A DNA stretch of 64,000 bases, from assembly GCA_002793035.1 (NCBI GenBank), contig PFPL01000045.1, positions 9,669 to 73,668 of the forward strand, read 5' to 3'. The notes under the pieces are model-generated. The model was not told where the DNA came from. It saw only the letters and a program-made list of their open reading frames with translations, and made no database searches. The stretch's first letter is position 1, and each line of letters begins with the position of its first letter. The translations under genes were made by a program, and so were the position numbers. Shown piece by piece: positions 6,488 to 26,274 of the stretch. The DNA comes from Candidatus Magasanikbacteria bacterium CG_4_10_14_0_2_um_filter_33_14. Its GTDB lineage: Bacteria; Patescibacteriota; Patescibacteriia; Magasanikbacterales; UBA922.

Positions 6488-6562
6488 TGGAGGTACCGGC
6501 GAGAATCGAACTCACGAATAGAGGTTTTGCAGACCCCTGCCTTACCGCTTGGCTACGGTACC
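6488..6562 (-). tRNA. tRNA-Cys (GCA)
   Basis: Manual cloverleaf: acceptor GGTACCG/CGGTACC, D-arm GCC/GGC, anticodon loop CTGCAAA (GCA), T-arm GTGAG-TTCGATT-CTCGC, discriminator T, CCA encoded. Confidence 0.85.
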
Positions 6563-6827
6563 ATAATATTTTTTACCCAGCTATGATAACACAAAATCTT
6601 TTTAATTTCAATAGTTTACAATTTGTAAAGATAATCTTAACAAAAAGTTATATACATGTTATAGTATGCTGTTCCGTTTTATACGGATAAGTACATTACA
6701 AAAGATAGTTTTAGTGGAGTTTTTTGTCGGTAGGGGATTTTTGTTTCTTTTTTTAAGATATAGAAATCCCCATTCCGACAGGATAATTCTGTTCGGATTT
6801 TACTTTCCAGGGGGAAAGGAGTTTGCC

Positions 6828-7889
6828 GTGATTCTCAATTTCCGTTTCTTGAGCACTCTCGTGCTCATGGCGTTCTTCGTCCTCGTCTCGGCTTGCCGAT
6901 CGGGTGAAGAGGATACTTTCAACAAAGAACTGCTGAGCAACTCGGCTACGGTCGTCAAGCAGCCAAAACCTCAGTGGGGAGGCGCCAAGGAAGACCGCGA
7001 CCAGTGGGGTGAGAGCTCCAAGCCGGAGATGGTTGAGTGCCCTCTCGACCACAATAACCGGTTCAATAAACATTGGGATATGGTGTCCTCTGACACTTGT
7101 CTGGCGCGTGTTCGTCATTCTTCCCCCTCCTACCTCAAGCTACAGCAGGAGAACGACGAGCGTGTCAAGTTGGAGGCACAGCAGAAGACTCATGAAGAGC
7201 ATGAGAAGGCTCGTCGCATCGAAGAAAGGAAGGTGCTCGTAGAGCGTCTCAAGACTTGCTTCGACAAGGAAGATAGTCGTCCTCAGTGGCGACAGGATGT
7301 CGAGTTTGGACTTCGTGCCAAGGACGTTCTTCTCGAGGTGCAGTACGACGACTACGTCGACAGCAAGGTCTATCCCTGCTATGACGACGCGAGGCTCTGC
7401 GTCAAGGATGTCGAGGGCTGTGAGCTCGTCGAGCAGTCCAAGAAGTACAACCTCGAGCGAGACAAGAACTTCGTCGCGCTTATTTGGAAGATTCTCAACT
7501 CCAAGGAGGAGATCGCTCCCCGACAGTTCTGTTGGGATGGATGCTCGGTCTTCTCGCGTGGTGATCTCGCTCGTAAGACGATGGTTGTCATGGAGAAGTA
7601 CGGGTGGACGCCTGAGGACTTCGGCTCCAAGACCGATGACTTCGTGGTGGCCATCAAGAAGAGTTATCAAGAGGCCTTCAAGTTCGCCACCCAGGACATT
7701 GAAGTCGTCTTCAAATGCAAAAAGGACGACCAGGAGGGAGTATTCCTCGACGAGGATTGTCAGTTTCTCGAAACTGAGCAATCCGATGTTTTGTCGGCTC
7801 TCTGTGACGAGTTCTTGAGAACGGCTTCCTTTGCTGGGCTGACCTCTGAGCAGATCAGCAAGCTCCATTGTGAGGGTTTTGACGAGTAG
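6828..7889 (+). CDS. GC-rich, cysteine-rich, acidic putative lipoprotein (compositionally foreign)
   Basis: GTG start preceded by GGGGAAAGGAG; signal peptide ending in lipobox LVSAC; about 14 Cys; coiled-coil segment. GC content clearly far above the flanks by eye (codons ctc/gtc/gac/aag). The overlapping ORFs on the other strand and frame are GC-rich artefacts. Confidence 0.55.
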   Translation: MILNFRFLSTLVLMAFFVLVSACRSGEEDTFNKELLSNSATVVKQPKPQWGGAKEDRDQWGESSKPEMVECPLDHNNRFNKHWDMVSSDTCLARVRHSSPSYLKLQQENDERVKLEAQQKTHEEHEKARRIEERKVLVERLKTCFDKEDSRPQWRQDVEFGLRAKDVLLEVQYDDYVDSKVYPCYDDARLCVKDVEGCELVEQSKKYNLERDKNFVALIWKILNSKEEIAPRQFCWDGCSVFSRGDLARKTMVVMEKYGWTPEDFGSKTDDFVVAIKKSYQEAFKFATQDIEVVFKCKKDDQEGVFLDEDCQFLETEQSDVLSALCDEFLRTASFAGLTSEQISKLHCEGFDE

Positions 7890-20286: not shown

Positions 20287-20371
20287 ATTATTTTATTGTT
20301 TTTATAGGAAAATTATATAATAATTTAGCTAAAAAGGCAAGAGGGGAAGTTTTATTTTTAATTTTGGCAAA

Positions 20372-20640
20372 AAAAAAGAGGCAAACCGTGGCCCAAATAG
20401 AATTTAGTGGCTGGTGCCTCTAGTAATCCCAATGTGCCGGTATTGTCCAAGCTTCTTAAATACTTTAATTTCTTAAAATACTTAAATAGCTTGGAAAATG
20501 CCAGGTAAAACCTGGGATTTTATAGCTTTGACCGCTCGCTGGTGGAAGCCTCTGACAAGTTTCTGTTTAGGAACGCTTGTTATGGTAGAGGACACCTGTT
20601 AAACTTTTGTGTTTGTTTTTGGACATTCTCCGAAGAGATT
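20372..20640 (+). ncRNA. GC-rich structured RNA candidate, possibly RNase P RNA (rnpB)
   Basis: A GC-rich island in AT-rich context with no ORF. UGCCAGGUAAAACCUGGG resembles the E. coli RNase P segment UGCCAGGUAACGCCUGGG. GUAUUGUCCAAGC (P4 5' strand-like, cf. AAAGUCCGGGC) is complementary to the downstream UUUUUGGACAUUC (P4 3' strand-like). The conserved ACAGARA was not found, so the call is weak. Confidence 0.3.
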
Positions 20641-20851
20641 GTCTGGGTGCAAGCAGTGCTCTAAGCTGTGAGAGAGATTCCCACGTGTGTCTTCTTACCG
20701 TATATCTCTGATATCCGTTATCGAAGTCTTCATGTTGGAAACTCTTTTGTAATGTTCACAAATATATTATACCATTTTTTTCACTATTTGTCAATAGTGC
20801 GGGGTTATTGGCTTAGTTTAGCGTAAAAATAGTATATATTAGCCAAAAAAA

Positions 20852-20871
20852 TGTATAAACTAGTCTATACA
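20852..20871. repeat. dyad-symmetric motif copy 1 (TGTATAnnnnnnnnTATACA)
   Basis: tgtataaactagtctataca. Confidence 0.5.
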
Positions 20872-20891
20872 ATGTTAAAAAGAATGATAAC

Positions 20892-20933: not shown

Positions 20934-20953
20934 TGTATAGGATAATCTATACA
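20934..20953. repeat. dyad motif copy 2
   Basis: tgtataggataatctataca, abutting the perfect DnaA box. Confidence 0.5.
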
Positions 20954-21079
20954 AAAACTAGTTTTCACTTGTGAAAAAACAGTGGATTTGTTGTGACTTG
21001 TTGTATTTTCAAATAGCTTGATCTATGTTTTTTGTGTGTAATACATCTTTTTATTGTTGTTCCCTAAGATTATGTACAA

Positions 21080-21099
21080 TGTATAGGAAAGTCTATACA
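21080..21099. repeat. dyad motif copy 3
   Basis: tgtataggaaagtctataca. Confidence 0.5.
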
Positions 21100-21234
21100 A
21101 ATATCAATATTCATTATGTTTGGGATTATTTTTTAAAAAATATTTGTATTCTCCAAAAAAGATAGATAAAATTTTTCATAAAATTTGACTGTTATACACA
21201 GTTTTTGAGTCTTTTCCCCAGTATTGTCCACATT

Positions 21235-21254
21235 TGTATAGGTTTTTGTAGACA
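21235..21254. repeat. dyad motif copy 4 (left boundary of the GC-rich islet)
   Basis: tgtataggtttttgtagaca; direct repeat of the copy at 22594-22613. Confidence 0.5.
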
Positions 21255-21385
21255 AATTATATAAAAACATTAACTTATAAAAAAAAACACCAATAAATTG
21301 GTGGGTTTGTAATATTGAATAGTATGTTGTGCAGGTTCCCGCGTCTTCCCTCCTTGTTTTAAGAGTTGACGCGGGTTACCTTGTT

Positions 21386-21864
21386 TTATCCCAAGTAGAG
21401 ACCTCTCTTTTTGAGCTTCTCCAGAGTGGTCCAGCCCTGCTTGAAGGCTCTCTGGGTAAACACCTGCCCTAAGCGTTTCAGCTTGTCGGTATATGGGGTC
21501 CAAGTAGAGCAGCGAACCCTTTCCTCTTCGTTGACACCACGCATGATGTCGAAACTATTGAGGGGTGGGCGTAGAGGTTGAGCAGGATGGTCTCGCCATC
21601 TGCTTTGTTTTCGGGGAGGTGGCCGTGTTCGAAGTAGTCGAGGGCTTCCTCTCAGGTGAGCCACTTTTTCTCCAGTCCGTGCAAGAACCAGCTGATCTGG
21701 TTTGTGCCGAGACGTTGGAAGCTCGGCATGATTTGCCGGAGATCTTCAAGAATTCTCTTGAGGATCTGGAAATCCTCACTAGAAATATTCTCGAGATCAG
21801 AGATCAGCTGCTCGCAGTCTCGCAAGGTGCAAGCCAGCTGTTGATATGTCCTGTCAATTGGCAA
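21386..21864 (-). pseudogene. third gene of the GC-rich islet operon, interrupted by an in-frame TGA and a frameshift
   Basis: TTG start 6 nt after GGAGGA. The 70-aa ORF ends at TGA (21652-21654); same-frame read-through gives a plausible RKPLDYFEHGHLPENKADGETILLNLYAHP. A second frame continues as ...EEERVRCSTWTPYTDKLKRLGQVFTQRAFKQGWTTLEKLKKRGLYLG to 21386. Confidence 0.4.
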
Positions 21865-21866
21865 TT

Positions 21867-22130
21867 TCAGTCCTCCTGGTTGCAGTTGCCTTTGCAGCAG
21901 CAGTTATCTCTTGGGTCGCACTTGTTGCATTTGGAACAGTGCCGGTAATGACAATGTTCACATTTGCAGGTGAAGCGTTCGTCGATGATAGCTCGACAGT
22001 AGAAGCAGGTTGTGAAGTACCATCTCTTTCCACAATTGGGACAAAGACGAGCAGGATAGCCGTCTTTTGTTTCGTCCGATGTGGAAATGTGTCCGCATTC
22101 GCAGACGTATTCGTTGGTCTGTCTGTTCAA
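21867..22130 (-). CDS. cysteine-rich zinc-ribbon-like small protein, paralog 2 (novel family)
   Basis: 87 aa, 17 Cys. Shares with the upstream paralog the pattern CxCG-x9/10-GxPARxC-x2-CxKxWYxTTCFxC-x4-DER-...-CDP-x3-CxCxGxC. GC-rich codon usage. Confidence 0.6.
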   Translation of the reverse strand: MNRQTNEYVCECGHISTSDETKDGYPARLCPNCGKRWYFTTCFYCRAIIDERFTCKCEHCHYRHCSKCNKCDPRDNCCCKGNCNQED

Positions 22131-22249
22131 ATTTGTTTCTCCTTTGTAAGTGGACTTATTTTAAGTATAGCTAGGGAAATTGTTAAATGTCAATTTTTTT
22201 TATAAACAATGAAGCCCTCTTGTATTTCACAAGTGGGCTTTATCATTGA

Positions 22250-22519
22250 TCAGCAGGACCCTTCGCAGGTGCATTCACCTGAAGGATCACAGCTTCCGCA
22301 AGTGGGGCAGTGGAGGTTTTTGCAGACATTACAGACCTTGTTGAGACGTTCGTCTAGATGAGTGTCACAGAGAAAACAGGTAGTATAGTACCAAATTTTC
22401 TCGCAACTAAGACAGCGCCTGGCAGGATTACCATGCTTGTAGTCAGCCGTGGTGTATCCTCCACAGTCGCAAATATTTTTTGGATCAATCTTTTTTGCAG
22501 GACCTTCTCTAACACGCAT
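22250..22519 (-). CDS. cysteine-rich zinc-ribbon-like small protein, paralog 1 (novel family)
   Basis: 89 aa, 16 Cys; RBS AAGGAG 6 nt upstream of ATG; first gene of the minus-strand operon. Confidence 0.6.
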   Translation of the reverse strand: MRVREGPAKKIDPKNICDCGGYTTADYKHGNPARRCLSCEKIWYYTTCFLCDTHLDERLNKVCNVCKNLHCPTCGSCDPSGECTCEGSC

Positions 22520-22559
22520 TTTGTAGCTCCTTCTTGGGAAGTGTCAAAGAGATACTTTT

Positions 22560-22587
22560 AGTATAGTACTTTGACATGTTATGTCAA
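22560..22587 (-). promoter_or_regulatory. near-consensus sigma70-type promoter for the islet operon
   Basis: On the minus strand: TTGACA-N16-TATACT, 39 nt upstream of the ATG. The -35 lies within the palindrome TTGACATAACATGTCAA. Confidence 0.45.
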
Positions 22588-22593
22588 TACTTT

Positions 22594-22613
22594 TGTATAG
22601 ATTGTTGTAGACA
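22594..22613. repeat. dyad motif copy 5 (right boundary of the islet, just upstream of the promoter)
   Basis: tgtatagattgttgtagaca. Confidence 0.5.
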
Positions 22614-22822
22614 AAGTGCATGAAAACATTTAAACATAAAAGTATCAAAACAATATAAATAAAAATAACAATAAAAAATTTATTATAAATATAAGTAAAA
22701 TGTTTTTATAATTTTGTTTTCTTGTTCTGGTATTTCATTGTTTTTATGAAATGAAATTATCAACACCTGCCCAATAATAGTAAAAAATGCTATACTACTT
22801 TTGTAACAATTAATCTTTTTAT

Positions 22823-23895: not shown

Positions 23896-26274
23896 ATGAA
23901 AAAACAAAAACAATTTTTAATTCCCGAAGTCCCAACAATATTTACCATCTTTGGAGCTACGGGAGACTTGATGGAACACAAAATTATTCCATCATTATTT
24001 TTTCTTTACAAACAAAAAAGATTACCAAAACATTTGAAAATTTTGGGCTTTGCGCGTCGTGATCTTAGTCATAAAGATTTTCGCAAAAAAGTATTGTCAG
24101 TTTTGCAAGAAATGAATTTTGTAAAAAATGAAAAACAGGCAGAAAAATTTTTGGAATTTTTTGAATACGTAAGAGGTGATTTTGCTGATGCTAAAAGTTT
24201 TGAAAGTTTGGGAGAAAAAGTAAAAGAAATAGAAGACGTTTGGAAAATTTGTGCTAACAAACTTTATTATTTAGCTGTGCCACCAAACTTCATGTCTGAA
24301 ATTGTGAGTAATTTGAAACGTACCAAACTTAGTGATCCTTGTGGTGGAAATATGGGATGGTCTCGTGTGATTGTGGAAAAACCAATTGGTTATGATAGAA
24401 ATAGTGCACAGGAATTGGAAAAGACATTGTCTATTTTGAAAGATGAACAAGTCTATCGCATTGATCATTATTTTGGTAAAGAAATGGTACAAGGAATTTT
24501 CAATTTTCGTTTTTCCAACAATTTTCTTGAGTCAGATTGGAACAATAAACATATTGAAAAAATTGAAATTAAGTTACTTGAAAGTATTGGCGTAGAAACT
24601 CGTGGAAATTTTTATGATAAAGTTGGTGCTTTGCGTGATGTGGGACAAAATCATTTACTTTCTGTTTTGGCTTTACTTGCCATGGACGATCCTCGTGATG
24701 CAAGTGCTGAAAGTGTGCGTGAGATGCGTGAAAAACTTTTGTCACAAATTACTATCATGAATAGTGAGGAAGTAAAAAAAAATACTTTTCGTGCTCAGTA
24801 CGAAGGTTATGACAATATTGCAGGAGTGGAAAAAAATTCTGAAACAGAAACTTATTTCAAATTGAAATTAAATATTGAATCTTTACGTTGGAGTGATGTA
24901 CCTATATATATTGAAAGTGGTAAGAAGGTTGGTCCTGCCAAAAAAGAAGTAGTAGTCACTTTCAAAGACCGTGAACCTTGTATTTGGTGTCAGCCGACTG
25001 GTCCTGCCAAAAATAAAGTAGTATTTTCTTTTGCACCTAAACAAGAAATAAATATAGATTTTTGGCAACGTAAACCAGGGTTTGAAGATGTACTAGAAAA
25101 ACGGGATTTCAAATTTTTGCTTTATAAAAAACAATCAAAATTTCCTTATGTGGAGGAGTATGCCAAACTTTTTTATGATGCCATACAGGGTCAACAGCGC
25201 TGGTTCATGACACGTGAAGAAGTTTTGCACGAATGGCGTATTGTTGATCCAATACTCAAAGCTTGGGAAAAAAGAAGTGTACCTCTTCATACGTATAAAG
25301 TGGATAATAGAGAAATTGTAGATATTGCTGACGACTTTTTCTTAACTAATGAAAAGAATTTCAAAAAAGAAATTGCTATTATGGGTCTTGGTCGTATGGG
25401 CGGAGGGTTGGCACAAAATTTGTTGGAAAAAGGCTGGAAAGTGGTTGGTCATAATAGAACTTGGGAAGTAACAGAAAAGTTGGAAAGTGTGGGTTTGACT
25501 GGCGCAAAAGAGGTAAAAGAAATGGTGGAAAAATTGATAGCGCCGAGAATAGTGTGGCTTATGTTACCAAACGGTAAACCTGTTGACGAGGCAATTTTTG
25601 ATAAAAAAGACGGGTTAATAAATTATTTAGAAAAAGGTGATATCATAATTGATGGAGGAAATTCTTATTTCAAGGACAGTGTTGAACGTGCTAAAAAATT
25701 GCAAAAATATGGTATTCACTTTCTCGATGCTGGTGTTTCGGGTGGTCCTGGTGGAGCTCGCAAAGGTGCTTGTGTGATGATTGGTGGTGACAAAAAAGTT
25801 TTCGCTAGTATTGAAACTCTTTTCAAAGATATGTCTGTTACCAATGGTTACGAATTTTTCCCTGGTTCTGGTGCTGGACACTTTGTCAAAATGGTTCACA
25901 ATGGAATTGAATATGGTATGATGCAAGCTCTTGGTGAAGGTTTCAATGTCATGAAAAAGTCTAATTACAAACTTGATTTGAAAAAAATCACTAGTGTGTA
26001 TAATAATGGTAGTGTGATTGAGTCCAGACTTGTTGGTTGGCTTTATGATGCTTTTGAAATTTATGGCATTGATCTCAAGAAGATAAGTGGTAAAGTAGAT
26101 AGTAATGGTGAAGGTGCTTGGACAGTAGATACTGCCAAAGCAATGAAATTGAAAGCAAAAGTAATAGAAGAATCTCTAAATTTTCGTAAACAATCACAAA
26201 AAAATCCAGATTATACTGGGCAAGTTGTTTCTGCTTTGCGGGGGCAGTTTGGGCAACACAAAGTAGAAAAGTGA
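23896..26274 (+). CDS. fused glucose-6-phosphate 1-dehydrogenase (Zwf) / 6-phosphogluconate dehydrogenase-like (Gnd) protein
   Basis: 792 aa. The N-terminus has G6PD motifs (FTIFGATGDLMEHKIIP; RIDHYFGKEMVQ). The C-terminal approx 300 aa has the 6PGDH NAD-binding fold (IAIMGLGRMGGGLAQNLLEKGWKVVGHNRT; GGNSYFKDSVERAKKLQKYGIHFLDAGVSGGPGGARKGACVMIGGD). Confidence 0.8.
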   Translation: MKKQKQFLIPEVPTIFTIFGATGDLMEHKIIPSLFFLYKQKRLPKHLKILGFARRDLSHKDFRKKVLSVLQEMNFVKNEKQAEKFLEFFEYVRGDFADAKSFESLGEKVKEIEDVWKICANKLYYLAVPPNFMSEIVSNLKRTKLSDPCGGNMGWSRVIVEKPIGYDRNSAQELEKTLSILKDEQVYRIDHYFGKEMVQGIFNFRFSNNFLESDWNNKHIEKIEIKLLESIGVETRGNFYDKVGALRDVGQNHLLSVLALLAMDDPRDASAESVREMREKLLSQITIMNSEEVKKNTFRAQYEGYDNIAGVEKNSETETYFKLKLNIESLRWSDVPIYIESGKKVGPAKKEVVVTFKDREPCIWCQPTGPAKNKVVFSFAPKQEINIDFWQRKPGFEDVLEKRDFKFLLYKKQSKFPYVEEYAKLFYDAIQGQQRWFMTREEVLHEWRIVDPILKAWEKRSVPLHTYKVDNREIVDIADDFFLTNEKNFKKEIAIMGLGRMGGGLAQNLLEKGWKVVGHNRTWEVTEKLESVGLTGAKEVKEMVEKLIAPRIVWLMLPNGKPVDEAIFDKKDGLINYLEKGDIIIDGGNSYFKDSVERAKKLQKYGIHFLDAGVSGGPGGARKGACVMIGGDKKVFASIETLFKDMSVTNGYEFFPGSGAGHFVKMVHNGIEYGMMQALGEGFNVMKKSNYKLDLKKITSVYNNGSVIESRLVGWLYDAFEIYGIDLKKISGKVDSNGEGAWTVDTAKAMKLKAKVIEESLNFRKQSQKNPDYTGQVVSALRGQFGQHKVEK

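What the first reader, a model, noticed from the sequence alone, without database searches (positions are those of the whole stretch)
21867..22519. Two tandem paralogous approx 88-aa proteins with 16-17 cysteines and a shared novel motif
Both proteins share the pattern CxCG-x(9-10)-GxPARxC-x2-CxKxWYxTTCFxC-x4-DER-...-CxxC-x4-CxxC-x2-CDP-x3-CxCxGxC. They lack a signal peptide. This looks like stacked zinc ribbons or a DnaJ-like CxxCxG finger, but WYxTTCFxC and PAR are not from any family I recognise. GC-rich codons mark them as foreign. Small metal-binding duplicated proteins under a strong, operator-guarded promoter could be regulators, anti-defence or toxin-antitoxin components, or RiPP-like precursors.
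Basis: seen in the sequence. Interest (0 to 1): 0.7.

Follow-up and report, generated by a model that had tools for sequence, protein, structure and literature searches.

The report
Unnamed multi-zinc domain, two tandem genes
Two neighbouring small genes in a Magasanikbacteria-like (CPR) genome encode cysteine-packed cytoplasmic proteins of a rare, unnamed metal-binding domain family, and in other bacteria the same domain is attached to anti-phage defence proteins such as the Mokosh helicase.

Summary
Two minus-strand genes, A (21867-22130, 87 aa, 16 Cys) and B (22250-22519, 89 aa, 14 Cys), are 47% identical (E 3e-21). Each has its own near-consensus promoter and ribosome-binding site.

They belong to a real but rare family. 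No model covers it in Pfam, NCBIfam, PHROGs or PADLOC. There is no significant PDB sequence match, and no fold match to a confident AlphaFold model. The family core is 12 conserved Cys plus invariant Trp, Asp and Arg.

B has a syntenic orthologue in another Magasanikbacteria genome (dN/dS about 0.26). A plus a decaying downstream ORF is absent there.

In other phyla the domain is fused to Mokosh MkoA and MkoB, to cold-shock domains, to a GreA C-terminal-like domain and to a methyltransferase-like region. It also sits beside UvrD/GajB-like, IetA-like, AbiTii and HsdR genes.

Best reading, inferred rather than shown: a three- or four-zinc module that binds single-stranded nucleic acid or transcription complexes and is used in phage-host conflict, here as free-standing copies on a small acquired island. 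RiPP precursor, DnaJ-finger and metallothionein readings are not supported; a toxin-antitoxin reading has nothing in its favour but is not excluded for A plus ORF3.

The parts
22250..22519 (-). Gene B: 89-aa protein with 14 Cys, a member of the new multi-zinc domain family. It is conserved in synteny in another Magasanikbacteria genome.
   Evidence: called as a gene on 14 public contigs; dN/dS about 0.26
21867..22130 (-). Gene A: 87-aa protein with 16 Cys, a divergent paralogue of B (47% identity). It has a TTG start and is not called as a gene in public assemblies.
22560..22587 (-). Promoter-like site for B: TTGACA, 16 nt, TATACT. Both hexamers are conserved in L057; the spacer palindrome is not.
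22164..22193 (-). Promoter-like site for A: TTGACA, 18 nt, TATACT. It lies at the upstream edge of the segment that L057 lacks.
22212..22240 (-). G+C-rich hairpin just downstream of B (AAGCCCACTTGT-GAAAT-ACAAGAGGGCTT). It is conserved in L057 and is a probable transcript end or stabiliser for B.
21386..21864 (-). ORF3 region. A 70-codon ORF (21652-21864) starts 2 nt after A's stop codon, with AGGAGG inside A's last codons. An in-frame TGA follows, then 58 more codons (to 21478), then an apparent frameshift into an ORF ending at 21386. GC3 is 0.62-0.64 and no homologues were found. Probably a decaying gene.
21279..21303 (-). Terminator-like hairpin CACCAATTTATTGGTG plus a T run, ending the A-ORF3 unit.
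21282..22194 (.). Segment of about 914 bp (A promoter, A, ORF3, terminator) that is present here but is represented by only 47 nt in the syntenic locus of L057. Either an insertion here or a deletion there.
22589..22641 (.). Left copy of the 53-nt direct repeat (79% identical to the right copy) bounding the GC-rich island. It contains the palindromic motif TTGTCTACAACAATCTATACAAA next to B's -35.
21230..21282 (.). Right copy of the 53-nt direct repeat bounding the island. Both copies also flank the single B gene in L057.

Best explanation
A and B are two divergent, free-standing copies of an undescribed beta-rich metal-binding domain of about 70 residues.

Shown. Both are real genes in a rare family of at least 52 members. 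The family has 12 conserved Cys and invariant Trp37, Asp50 and Arg52 (A numbering). No existing family model covers it and no solved or predicted fold matches it. B is vertically conserved under purifying selection. The genes sit on a compositionally foreign island of about 1.3 kb, bounded by 53-nt direct repeats, in a Magasanikbacteria-like (CPR) genome. Each gene has its own sigma-70-type promoter. In other phyla the same domain is built into anti-phage or conflict proteins or sits next to them: Mokosh MkoA and MkoB, cold-shock-domain proteins beside a UvrD/GajB-like helicase, a GreA-C-like protein beside AbiTii, and a neighbour resembling IetA.

Inferred. The Cys residues form three Cys4 zinc sites: ribbon 1 from C10/C12/C30/C33, ribbon 2 from C42/C45-or-His/C57/C60, and a cluster from C65/C68/C71/C77. 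A and B and their subgroup carry a fourth site made of His64 and the CxCxGxC tail. The Trp-Asp-Arg patch on the central hairpin is the working surface. The module binds single-stranded nucleic acid, most likely RNA, or a transcription or replication complex. In defence proteins it would tether or sense. As the stand-alone proteins A and B it would act in trans in phage-host conflict, either as a minimal sensor or adaptor or as a competitor for the same ligand.
For: Reality of the family:
- A against B gives E 3e-21.
- A search of 1.84 billion representative proteins found 18 relatives.
- A degenerate-DNA scan of 185,579 species genomes gave 64 loci, and 30 of them hold an ORF matching the family profile at E 1e-7 to 1e-23.
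- A and B score about 62 bits against a profile built without them.
- Conserved columns are listed.

Metal sites:
- All 9 members with no Cys in the second knuckle have His three residues before the invariant Asp. Three more keep the Cys shifted by one or two positions (Fisher p 6e-7).
- His64 is present in 13 of 13 members carrying the CxCxG tail, against 8 of 39 without it (p 3e-7).
- The AlphaFold model has pLDDT 83.9 and consists of beta-hairpins between the Cys knuckles.

Novelty:
- No family model matches.
- The best PDB profile match has E 0.031 and covers only the first ribbon.

Conflict and nucleic-acid link:
- L067 is the domain plus MkoA (E 4e-100).
- L045 is MkoB (E 1e-117) with the domain appended at the C-terminus; its upstream gene is MkoA (1075 bits).
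- L068 and P0018 carry an N-terminal cold-shock domain (Pfam hits). L021 and L047 share the same long-form layout, and L047 has a cold-shock-like N-terminal motif by inspection.
- L021 lies beside a GajB/UvrD-like helicase.
- L026 has a GreA_GreB C-terminal domain and lies beside AbiTii.
- L037 lies beside an IetA-like ATPase.
- L077 lies beside HsdR.

Mobility:
- Family genes often differ from their neighbours in GC3, in either direction.
- No neighbour is conserved across the family.

Local anatomy.
Against: - No experiment or structure shows metal or nucleic-acid binding.
- A and B are near neutral (pI 7.4), not basic as many nucleic-acid binders are.
- The small forms in Patescibacteria lie among housekeeping genes, not in defence islands.
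- No defence gene was recognised next to A and B.
- The fusion partners could equally point to a protein-protein adaptor.
- The ligand-swap statistics count related sequences as independent.
- The last Cys cluster, C-x2-C-x2-C-x5-C, also recalls an Fe-S motif.
- The family survey used a pattern that I designed, so the architecture census is biased and incomplete.
Confidence: 0.4

Rival explanations
1. Anti-defence decoy. A and B are free copies of a defence-protein module, carried on a mobile island, that compete for the ligand or partner of host immune proteins such as Mokosh-type systems and so blunt them.
For: The same domain is part of MkoA and MkoB. The genes are small, have their own promoters, are compositionally foreign, and have no conserved partner. 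Many small members end in acidic tails.
Against: B has stayed at one chromosomal position across two species under purifying selection, which fits a host gene better than a parasite's weapon. No family member was found in IMG/VR contigs or in 50,697 phage records. No Mokosh-type genes appear in the Pfam annotation of the roughly 20 kb around B.
Confidence: 0.15
2. RNA-polymerase-binding transcription factor. The zinc module docks on RNA polymerase, as TFIIS, RPC10 and DksA-type zinc ribbons do, and A and B tune transcription.
For: One architecture joins the domain to a GreA/GreB C-terminal (RNA-polymerase-binding) domain, and others join it to cold-shock domains. Weak partial fold matches go to RNA polymerase III subunit RPC10 and to Rpb9. 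B lies about 2 kb from a DksA/TraR-type gene in both genomes.
Against: The fold matches are insignificant (E above 1) and cover only about 35 residues of a generic zinc ribbon. The adjacency to dksA is seen only in two close relatives. The helicase, MkoB and methyltransferase-like fusions do not require RNA polymerase.
Confidence: 0.15
3. Metal or redox protein. A and B act as a metallothionein-like zinc buffer, or as a small Fe-S or ferredoxin-like electron carrier.
For: Cys makes up 16-18% of the residues. The C-x2-C-x2-C-x5-C cluster gives weak sub-threshold matches to ferredoxin and HdrC motifs (E 1.9-2.6; one NCBIfam FdxA hit at E 0.0099).
Against: The family has invariant Trp, Asp and Arg, fixed spacing and a confidently predicted beta fold. 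The domain is embedded in helicases and cold-shock-domain proteins. The Cys-to-His swap is typical of structural zinc sites. No metallothionein or ferredoxin family reaches significance.
Confidence: 0.07
4. RiPP precursor peptides, or a toxin-antitoxin pair.
For: The genes are small, Cys-rich and duplicated. ORF3 is translationally coupled to A.
Against: No radical-SAM enzyme, cyclase, protease or transporter lies in the neighbourhood. The domain is an internal module of proteins of 200-1548 aa. No partner is conserved across 30 or more loci. ORF3 is interrupted and has no homologues.
Confidence: 0.03

Closest known systems
Zinc-ribbon small proteins, such as the Haloferax 'small CPxCG-related zinc finger protein' (PDB 8q5b) and Thermus ZifS (PDB 8yoz)
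   Same: These are small cytoplasmic proteins built from Cys knuckles flanking beta-hairpins. The first third of the domain (CxC...CxxC) gives the best, still sub-threshold, matches to them (E 0.031; Foldseek E 1.3).
   Different: They have one Zn site in 56-79 residues. Here there are three core sites, plus a fourth in A and B, an invariant Trp/Asp/Arg signature and a C-x2-C-x2-C-xn-C cluster. No significant sequence or fold match covers the whole domain.
Mokosh anti-phage system (MkoA Upf1-like RNA helicase and MkoB; Millman et al., bioRxiv 10.1101/2022.05.11.491447)
   Same: Homologues of both Mokosh proteins carry this domain: N-terminal in an MkoA homologue (L067) and C-terminal in an MkoB homologue (L045).
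   Different: The domain lies outside the regions matched by the PADLOC Mokosh profiles, so it is an accessory. A and B themselves match no Mokosh profile, and no helicase or nuclease gene is nearby. The window does not hold a Mokosh system.
Transcription-factor zinc ribbons that reach into or onto RNA polymerase (TFIIS domain III, RPC10/Rpb9) and the DksA/TraR C4 finger
   Same: They share a beta-hairpin zinc-ribbon architecture with conserved acidic and basic residues on a hairpin. One family architecture is fused to a GreA-C-like domain.
   Different: Only insignificant partial fold matches were found. There is no PF01258 or TFIIS Pfam hit. The number of sites and the motif differ.
SSB-type single-strand-binding proteins with acidic C-terminal tips (SSB ...DDDIPF; from my own knowledge, not tested)
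   Same: Several family members end in acidic tails. P0015 ends ...VDNDIPF, L021 ends ...DEDFEILF and L047 ends ...NDTYKILF.
   Different: There is no OB fold in the domain itself. A and B have only a 4-residue (A: NQED) tail or none (B). The resemblance is a lead, not a test.

Membership tests
New Cys12-W-D-R multi-zinc domain family (defined here) | Conserved C10, C12, C30, C33, C42, C45 (or His), C57, C60, C65, C68, C71 and C77, plus invariant W37, D50 and R52, with fixed spacing | tested here: met
   A and B carry all of them. They score 62.7 and 61.1 bits against a profile built without them.
New Cys12-W-D-R multi-zinc domain family, CPR 'DER' subgroup | His64 together with a C-terminal CxCxGxC tail (putative fourth metal site), and GYPA(R) and (I/L)DER(F/L) | tested here: met
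   Both features are present in A and B. His64 co-occurs with the tail in 13 of 13 members.
Generic zinc ribbon fold | Two Cys knuckles flanking a beta-hairpin, binding one Zn | tested here: inconclusive
   The AlphaFold model has hairpins E17-22/E25-29 and E36-41/E48-50 between the knuckles. Only partial, insignificant matches to zinc ribbons were found. Metal binding was not measured.
DnaJ central cysteine-rich domain (CxxCxGxG) | Repeated CxxCxGxG motifs; match to the Pfam DnaJ zinc-finger model | tested here: not met
   No Pfam hit at E up to 10 for A or B, and none among 20 members. The motif spacing differs.
Metallothionein | Cys-rich, essentially without aromatic residues or regular secondary structure; match to a metallothionein family model | tested here: not met
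   No Pfam or NCBIfam hit. The family has invariant Trp, several Tyr and Phe, and a confidently predicted beta structure.
4Fe-4S ferredoxin-type cluster motif | C-x2-C-x2-C-x3-C-P and a match to Fer4 models | tested here: inconclusive
   The spacing here is C-x2-C-x2-C-x5-C. Only sub-threshold matches were found (E 1.9-2.6; E 0.0099 for one member). Spectroscopy is needed.
Mokosh defence system | MkoA (COG1112/Upf1-like helicase) with MkoB, or fused MkoC, in one locus | tested here: not met
   A and B have no PADLOC hit. No helicase or nuclease family appears among the Pfam-annotated genes of the roughly 20 kb around B.
RiPP precursor | Adjacent maturase (radical SAM, cyclodehydratase, lanthionine synthetase and the like), protease and exporter; leader-core organisation | tested here: not met
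   None of these appears among the called genes with Pfam hits around the locus. The domain occurs inside large proteins.
Type II toxin-antitoxin pair | Two co-transcribed small genes that are conserved together | tested here: inconclusive
   Against a pair: A and B have separate promoters, the orthologous locus has B alone, and there is no recurrent neighbour. ORF3 is translationally coupled to A, but it is interrupted and has no homologues, so an A-ORF3 pair could not be tested.

The most novel reading that the evidence does not exclude
The domain is a new kind of phage-sensing zinc module that binds nucleic acid or transcription complexes and is shared by several defence systems (Mokosh and others). 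Its free-standing copies, such as A and B, travel between genomes as promoter-bearing mini-cassettes bounded by repeats of about 53 nt. In ultra-small CPR cells they would serve as minimal immune sensors or as decoys. That would add both a new domain class in bacterial immunity and a new type of tiny mobile gene cassette.
Probability: 0.2. Interest if true: 0.75.

Novelty: new variant of a known kind. Interest (0 to 1): 0.55.

Why it matters
If the inference holds, this is an unmodelled protein domain that recurs in anti-phage systems, including the Mokosh helicase and its partner, whose sensing step is still unknown. A small soluble protein of about 88 residues such as A or B would be an easy handle for finding out what that module recognises. 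It also shows that gene callers miss such genes: A is not called in any public assembly. Finally, reduced CPR genomes keep, and apparently exchange, tiny Cys-rich genes of unknown role. If the domain turns out to be only a structural zinc scaffold, the result is a new Pfam-type family and little more.

Tried and rejected
- The word-indexed homologue search with B found nothing. With ORF3 it also found nothing.
- The search for related loci with the A/B profile found no relatives in genome contigs or viral contigs. In metagenome contigs it found only one contig, identical to the window.
- The broader alignments were too divergent for that tool. I therefore wrote a degenerate DNA pattern instead.
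- The 4 viral-contig pattern hits are false.
- tblastn of A and of P0015 against 50,697 phage records gave no match.
- A plasmid 'nuclease domain-containing protein' downstream of an AAA ATPase gave E 0.2. It scores only 10.6 bits and lacks the Trp, the D-x-R and the CxxCxxC cluster, so it was rejected as a member.
- ORF3 has a marginal hit to Microbacterium phage Cece gp190 (E 4e-3), a hypothetical protein between ribonucleotide reductase genes. This was uninformative.
- ORF3-like sequence is absent from all other family loci.
- No neighbour is conserved across family loci.
- The afdb50 fold library was unavailable.
- An alternative genetic code as the explanation for the in-frame TGA in ORF3 was rejected. 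Long ORFs read through with table 11, and two of 42 long ORFs end in TGA.
- The 'recent tandem duplication' reading was rejected (47% identity; A absent from the orthologous locus).
- Whether A-ORF3 was inserted here or deleted in L057 could not be decided. The GC3 difference between A (0.58) and B (0.44-0.52) is within sampling error for about 88 codons.

Full report
**1. The observation**

- A is 21867-22130: 87 aa, with a TTG start 7 nt after AAGGAG.
- B is 22250-22519: 89 aa, with an ATG start after GAAGGAG.

They align at 47% identity over 75 residues, E 3e-21. A has 16 Cys and B has 14, not 16-17. Both are near neutral (pI 7.4), and neither has a hydrophobic N-terminus.

Third-position GC is 0.58 in A and 0.44 in B, against 0.20-0.29 in the flanking genes. 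Both genes use TGC more often than TGT (10 of 16 Cys codons in A, 8 of 14 in B), whereas the host genes sampled almost always use TGT.

Each gene has its own promoter-like site scoring 11 of 12: TTGACA-16-TATACT at 22587-22560, and TTGACA-18-TATACT at 22193-22164. A G+C-rich hairpin at 22212-22240 separates the two genes.

**2. Are they genes?**

B is called as a gene on 14 public contigs. All six stretches fetched are 100% identical to the window. A is not called in any of them.

A Magasanikbacteria MAG (PFBU01000036.1, locus L057) is syntenic with the window at 75-85% DNA identity. The shared order is lspA, a DksA/TraR-type gene, about 1 kb of conserved non-coding DNA, a B orthologue, and a SIS-like gene of 310 aa. 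So the window comes from a related CPR (Patescibacteria) bacterium.

B against its orthologue gives 54 of 89 identical residues, all Cys kept, dN 0.276, dS 1.06 and dN/dS about 0.26. The neighbouring SIS-like gene gives dS 1.15 and dN/dS 0.13. B was therefore present before the two species split, and it is under purifying selection.

A has no orthologue to compare. It does keep every family-invariant residue, and it scores 62.7 bits against a profile built from 50 other members without A or B.

**3. The locus**

Relative to L057, the window has about 914 extra bp (21282-22194), where L057 has 47 nt. The extra segment holds the A promoter, A, a downstream reading frame (ORF3) and a hairpin plus T-run terminator at 21303-21279.

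ORF3 starts 2 nt after A's stop codon, and its AGGAGG lies inside A's last codons. It runs 70 codons to an in-frame TGA, continues for 58 codons, and then appears to shift frame to an ORF ending at 21386. Its GC3 is 0.62-0.64. It has no homologues. I read it as a decaying gene.

The whole GC-rich island (about 21283-22588) is bounded by 53-nt direct repeats that are 79% identical to each other. The same repeats flank the single B gene in L057.

Each repeat contains a 21-bp near-palindromic motif, TGT(A/C)TA-N7-CTATACAA. The motif occurs five times between 20852 and 22613 and nowhere else in the 64 kb; 0.07 occurrences are expected by chance. One copy abuts B's -35 hexamer in both species.

Whether A-ORF3 was inserted here or lost in L057 cannot be decided from two genomes.

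**4. The family**

No model matches A or B in Pfam, PHROGs, NCBIfam or PADLOC. No significant PDB sequence match exists.

HMMER with the A/B profile against 1.84 billion representative proteins found only 18 proteins at E up to 1e-3.

I then wrote a degenerate DNA pattern for W-[YWFL..]-x3-C...D-x-R...C-x2-C-x4-C-x2-C-x2-C and scanned 185,579 species genomes. Of 64 loci, 30 contain an ORF matching the family profile at E 1e-7 to 1e-23. Hosts include Magasanikbacteria, Berkelbacteria, Saccharimonadales and other Patescibacteria, Chloroflexota, Acidobacteriota, Planctomycetota, Cyanobacteria, Bacteroidota and Gammaproteobacteria.

Conservation in 52 aligned sequences, in A numbering:

| Residue(s) | Conserved in |
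|---|---|
| C30, W37, C42, D50, R52, C57, C60, C65, C68, C71 | 52 of 52 |
| C77 | 51 of 52 |
| C33 | 50 of 52 |
| C12 | 49 of 52 |
| C10 | 48 of 52 |
| C45 | 43 of 52 |

Neither Pfam run on 20 full-length members nor NCBIfam run on 45 domain segments covers the domain.

**5. Structure and metal sites**

AlphaFold with 20 sequences gives pLDDT 83.9 and pTM 0.68. The model is all-beta, with hairpins 17-22/25-29 and 36-41/48-50 lying between the Cys knuckles.

No fold match was found:
- Foldseek against the PDB and BFVD gives nothing at E below 0.3. The partial hits of 30-40 residues are generic zinc ribbons such as NudC, ZifS and RPC10.
- A 45-sequence profile against PDB sequences gives a best E of 0.031, over the first ribbon only.

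Two correlations support metal sites. First, all 9 members with no Cys in the second knuckle have His three residues before the invariant Asp; three more keep the Cys shifted by one or two positions (Fisher p 6e-7). Second, His64 accompanies the CxCxG tail in 13 of 13 members, against 8 of 39 without the tail (p 3e-7). Both tests treat related sequences as independent.

I infer three Cys4 sites in the core and a fourth (His plus three Cys) in A and B. Zinc itself was not tested.

**6. Context elsewhere**

The domain is a module of larger proteins:

| Locus (host) | Architecture or neighbour |
|---|---|
| L067 (Rhodothermales) | Domain at the N-terminus of an MkoA-type SF1 helicase of 1548 aa (PADLOC MkoA E 4e-100) |
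| L045 (Methylobacter) | MkoB (E 1e-117 over residues 14-478) with the domain at 516-589; the upstream overlapping gene is MkoA (1075 bits) |
| L068, P0018 | Cold-shock domain (Pfam hit), helical linker, then the domain |
| L021, L047 | Same long-form layout; L047 has a cold-shock-like N-terminal motif by inspection; L021 lies beside a UvrD/GajB-like helicase |
| L026 | GreA/GreB C-terminal domain plus the domain, beside AbiTii; L035 looks similar by inspection and was not scanned |
| L037, L061 | L037 lies beside an IetA-like double AAA ATPase; the adjacent gene of L061 is a homologue of it |
| L077 | Beside HsdR |
| L049 | Domain plus a methyltransferase-like region |

The long forms share Y-[KR]-x4-G-I-R just before the domain. 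Several share GCSTNPYS just after it.

The small forms have no recurrent neighbour and lie among housekeeping genes. Their GC3 often departs from that of their neighbours, in either direction, which suggests horizontal movement. Many end in acidic tails. P0015 ends ...VDNDIPF, and L021 and L047 end ...EILF and ...KILF, which recalls the SSB C-terminal tip. That comparison comes from my own knowledge and was not tested.

**7. Interpretation**

Shown:
- The two genes are real.
- The family is rare and unmodelled.
- The Cys, Trp, Asp and Arg pattern is conserved.
- B is inherited vertically.
- The island is compositionally foreign.
- The domain recurs in defence proteins and beside them.

Inferred:
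- It is a multi-zinc module.
- Its partners (an Upf1-like RNA helicase, cold-shock domains, GreA-C, UvrD-like helicases) point to single-stranded nucleic acid or transcription and replication complexes as the ligand.
- A and B act in trans in phage-host conflict.

I put about 0.4 on this composite. Rivals are an anti-defence decoy (0.15), an RNA-polymerase-binding factor (0.15), a metal or redox protein (0.07), and a RiPP precursor or toxin-antitoxin pair (0.03).

The window does not hold a Mokosh system, and A and B are not members of any named family.

**8. Verdict**

The function is unproven. Interest is moderate. The finding is an unnamed domain with a defence link and a convenient small representative. 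It is not a new principle.

Noticed in passing
window 20355-20794, minus strand: Candidate non-coding RNA of about 400 nt. It has a perfect promoter (TTGACA-17-TATAAT with an upstream TG, 20794-20766) and no ORF. Long blocks are identical in the Magasanikbacteria locus L057. It ends in a hairpin plus T9. The fold z-score is -5.5 against shuffles. Rfam gives nothing at E up to 1 except microRNA noise.
   Followed up: partly
window 20852-20872, 20934-20954, 21080-21100, 21234-21254, 22593-22613: A 21-bp near-palindromic motif, TGT(A/C)TA-N7-CTATACAA, occurs five times in this 1.8-kb stretch and nowhere else in the window; 0.07 occurrences are expected by chance. It is conserved in L057. It could be a regulator-binding site or a recombination site.
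   Followed up: partly
window 21386-21864, minus strand: ORF3 is translationally coupled to A and is GC-rich (GC3 0.62-0.64). It is interrupted by an in-frame TGA at 21652-21654 and by an apparent frameshift near 21560. No homologues were found anywhere.
   Followed up: yes
window about 20597, 20739 and 21343: Several independent public assemblies of the same organism break their contigs at these points in the non-coding stretch beside the island. This may reflect strain heterogeneity or repeats.
   Followed up: no
window 23896-26274, plus strand: A single 792-aa protein combines glucose-6-phosphate dehydrogenase (G6PD_N, G6PD_C) and 6-phosphogluconate dehydrogenase (NAD_binding_2, 6PGD) domains. 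This is an uncommon fusion of two pentose-phosphate enzymes.
   Followed up: no
window 6666-7889, plus strand, next to tRNA-Cys at 6488-6562: This is a second compositionally foreign spot (GC 0.51 against about 0.32). It holds a 407-aa ORF of unknown function directly beside a tRNA gene, which suggests another acquired island.
   Followed up: no
L032 2287-3475 (Berkelbacteria): A family member lies 104 nt downstream of a heliorhodopsin gene on the same strand. A heliorhodopsin survey (bioRxiv 10.1101/2021.02.01.429150) reports unexplained N-terminal and loop extensions with 8-10 Cys and a conserved Trp. Whether these are the same domain was not checked.
   Followed up: no
P0015 C-terminus; L021 7210-7998 and L047 6094-6966 C-termini: Some family members end in ...VDNDIPF...DEDFEILF or ...NDTYKILF, which resembles the SSB C-terminal interaction tip. 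Many small members have acidic tails.
   Followed up: no
L008 3372-3731 and L048 3229-3600: Two unrelated small-form loci have a 23S_rRNA_IVP (four-helix-bundle) gene within about 3 kb (L008) or 0.5 kb (L048) of the family member. This may be coincidence.
   Followed up: no
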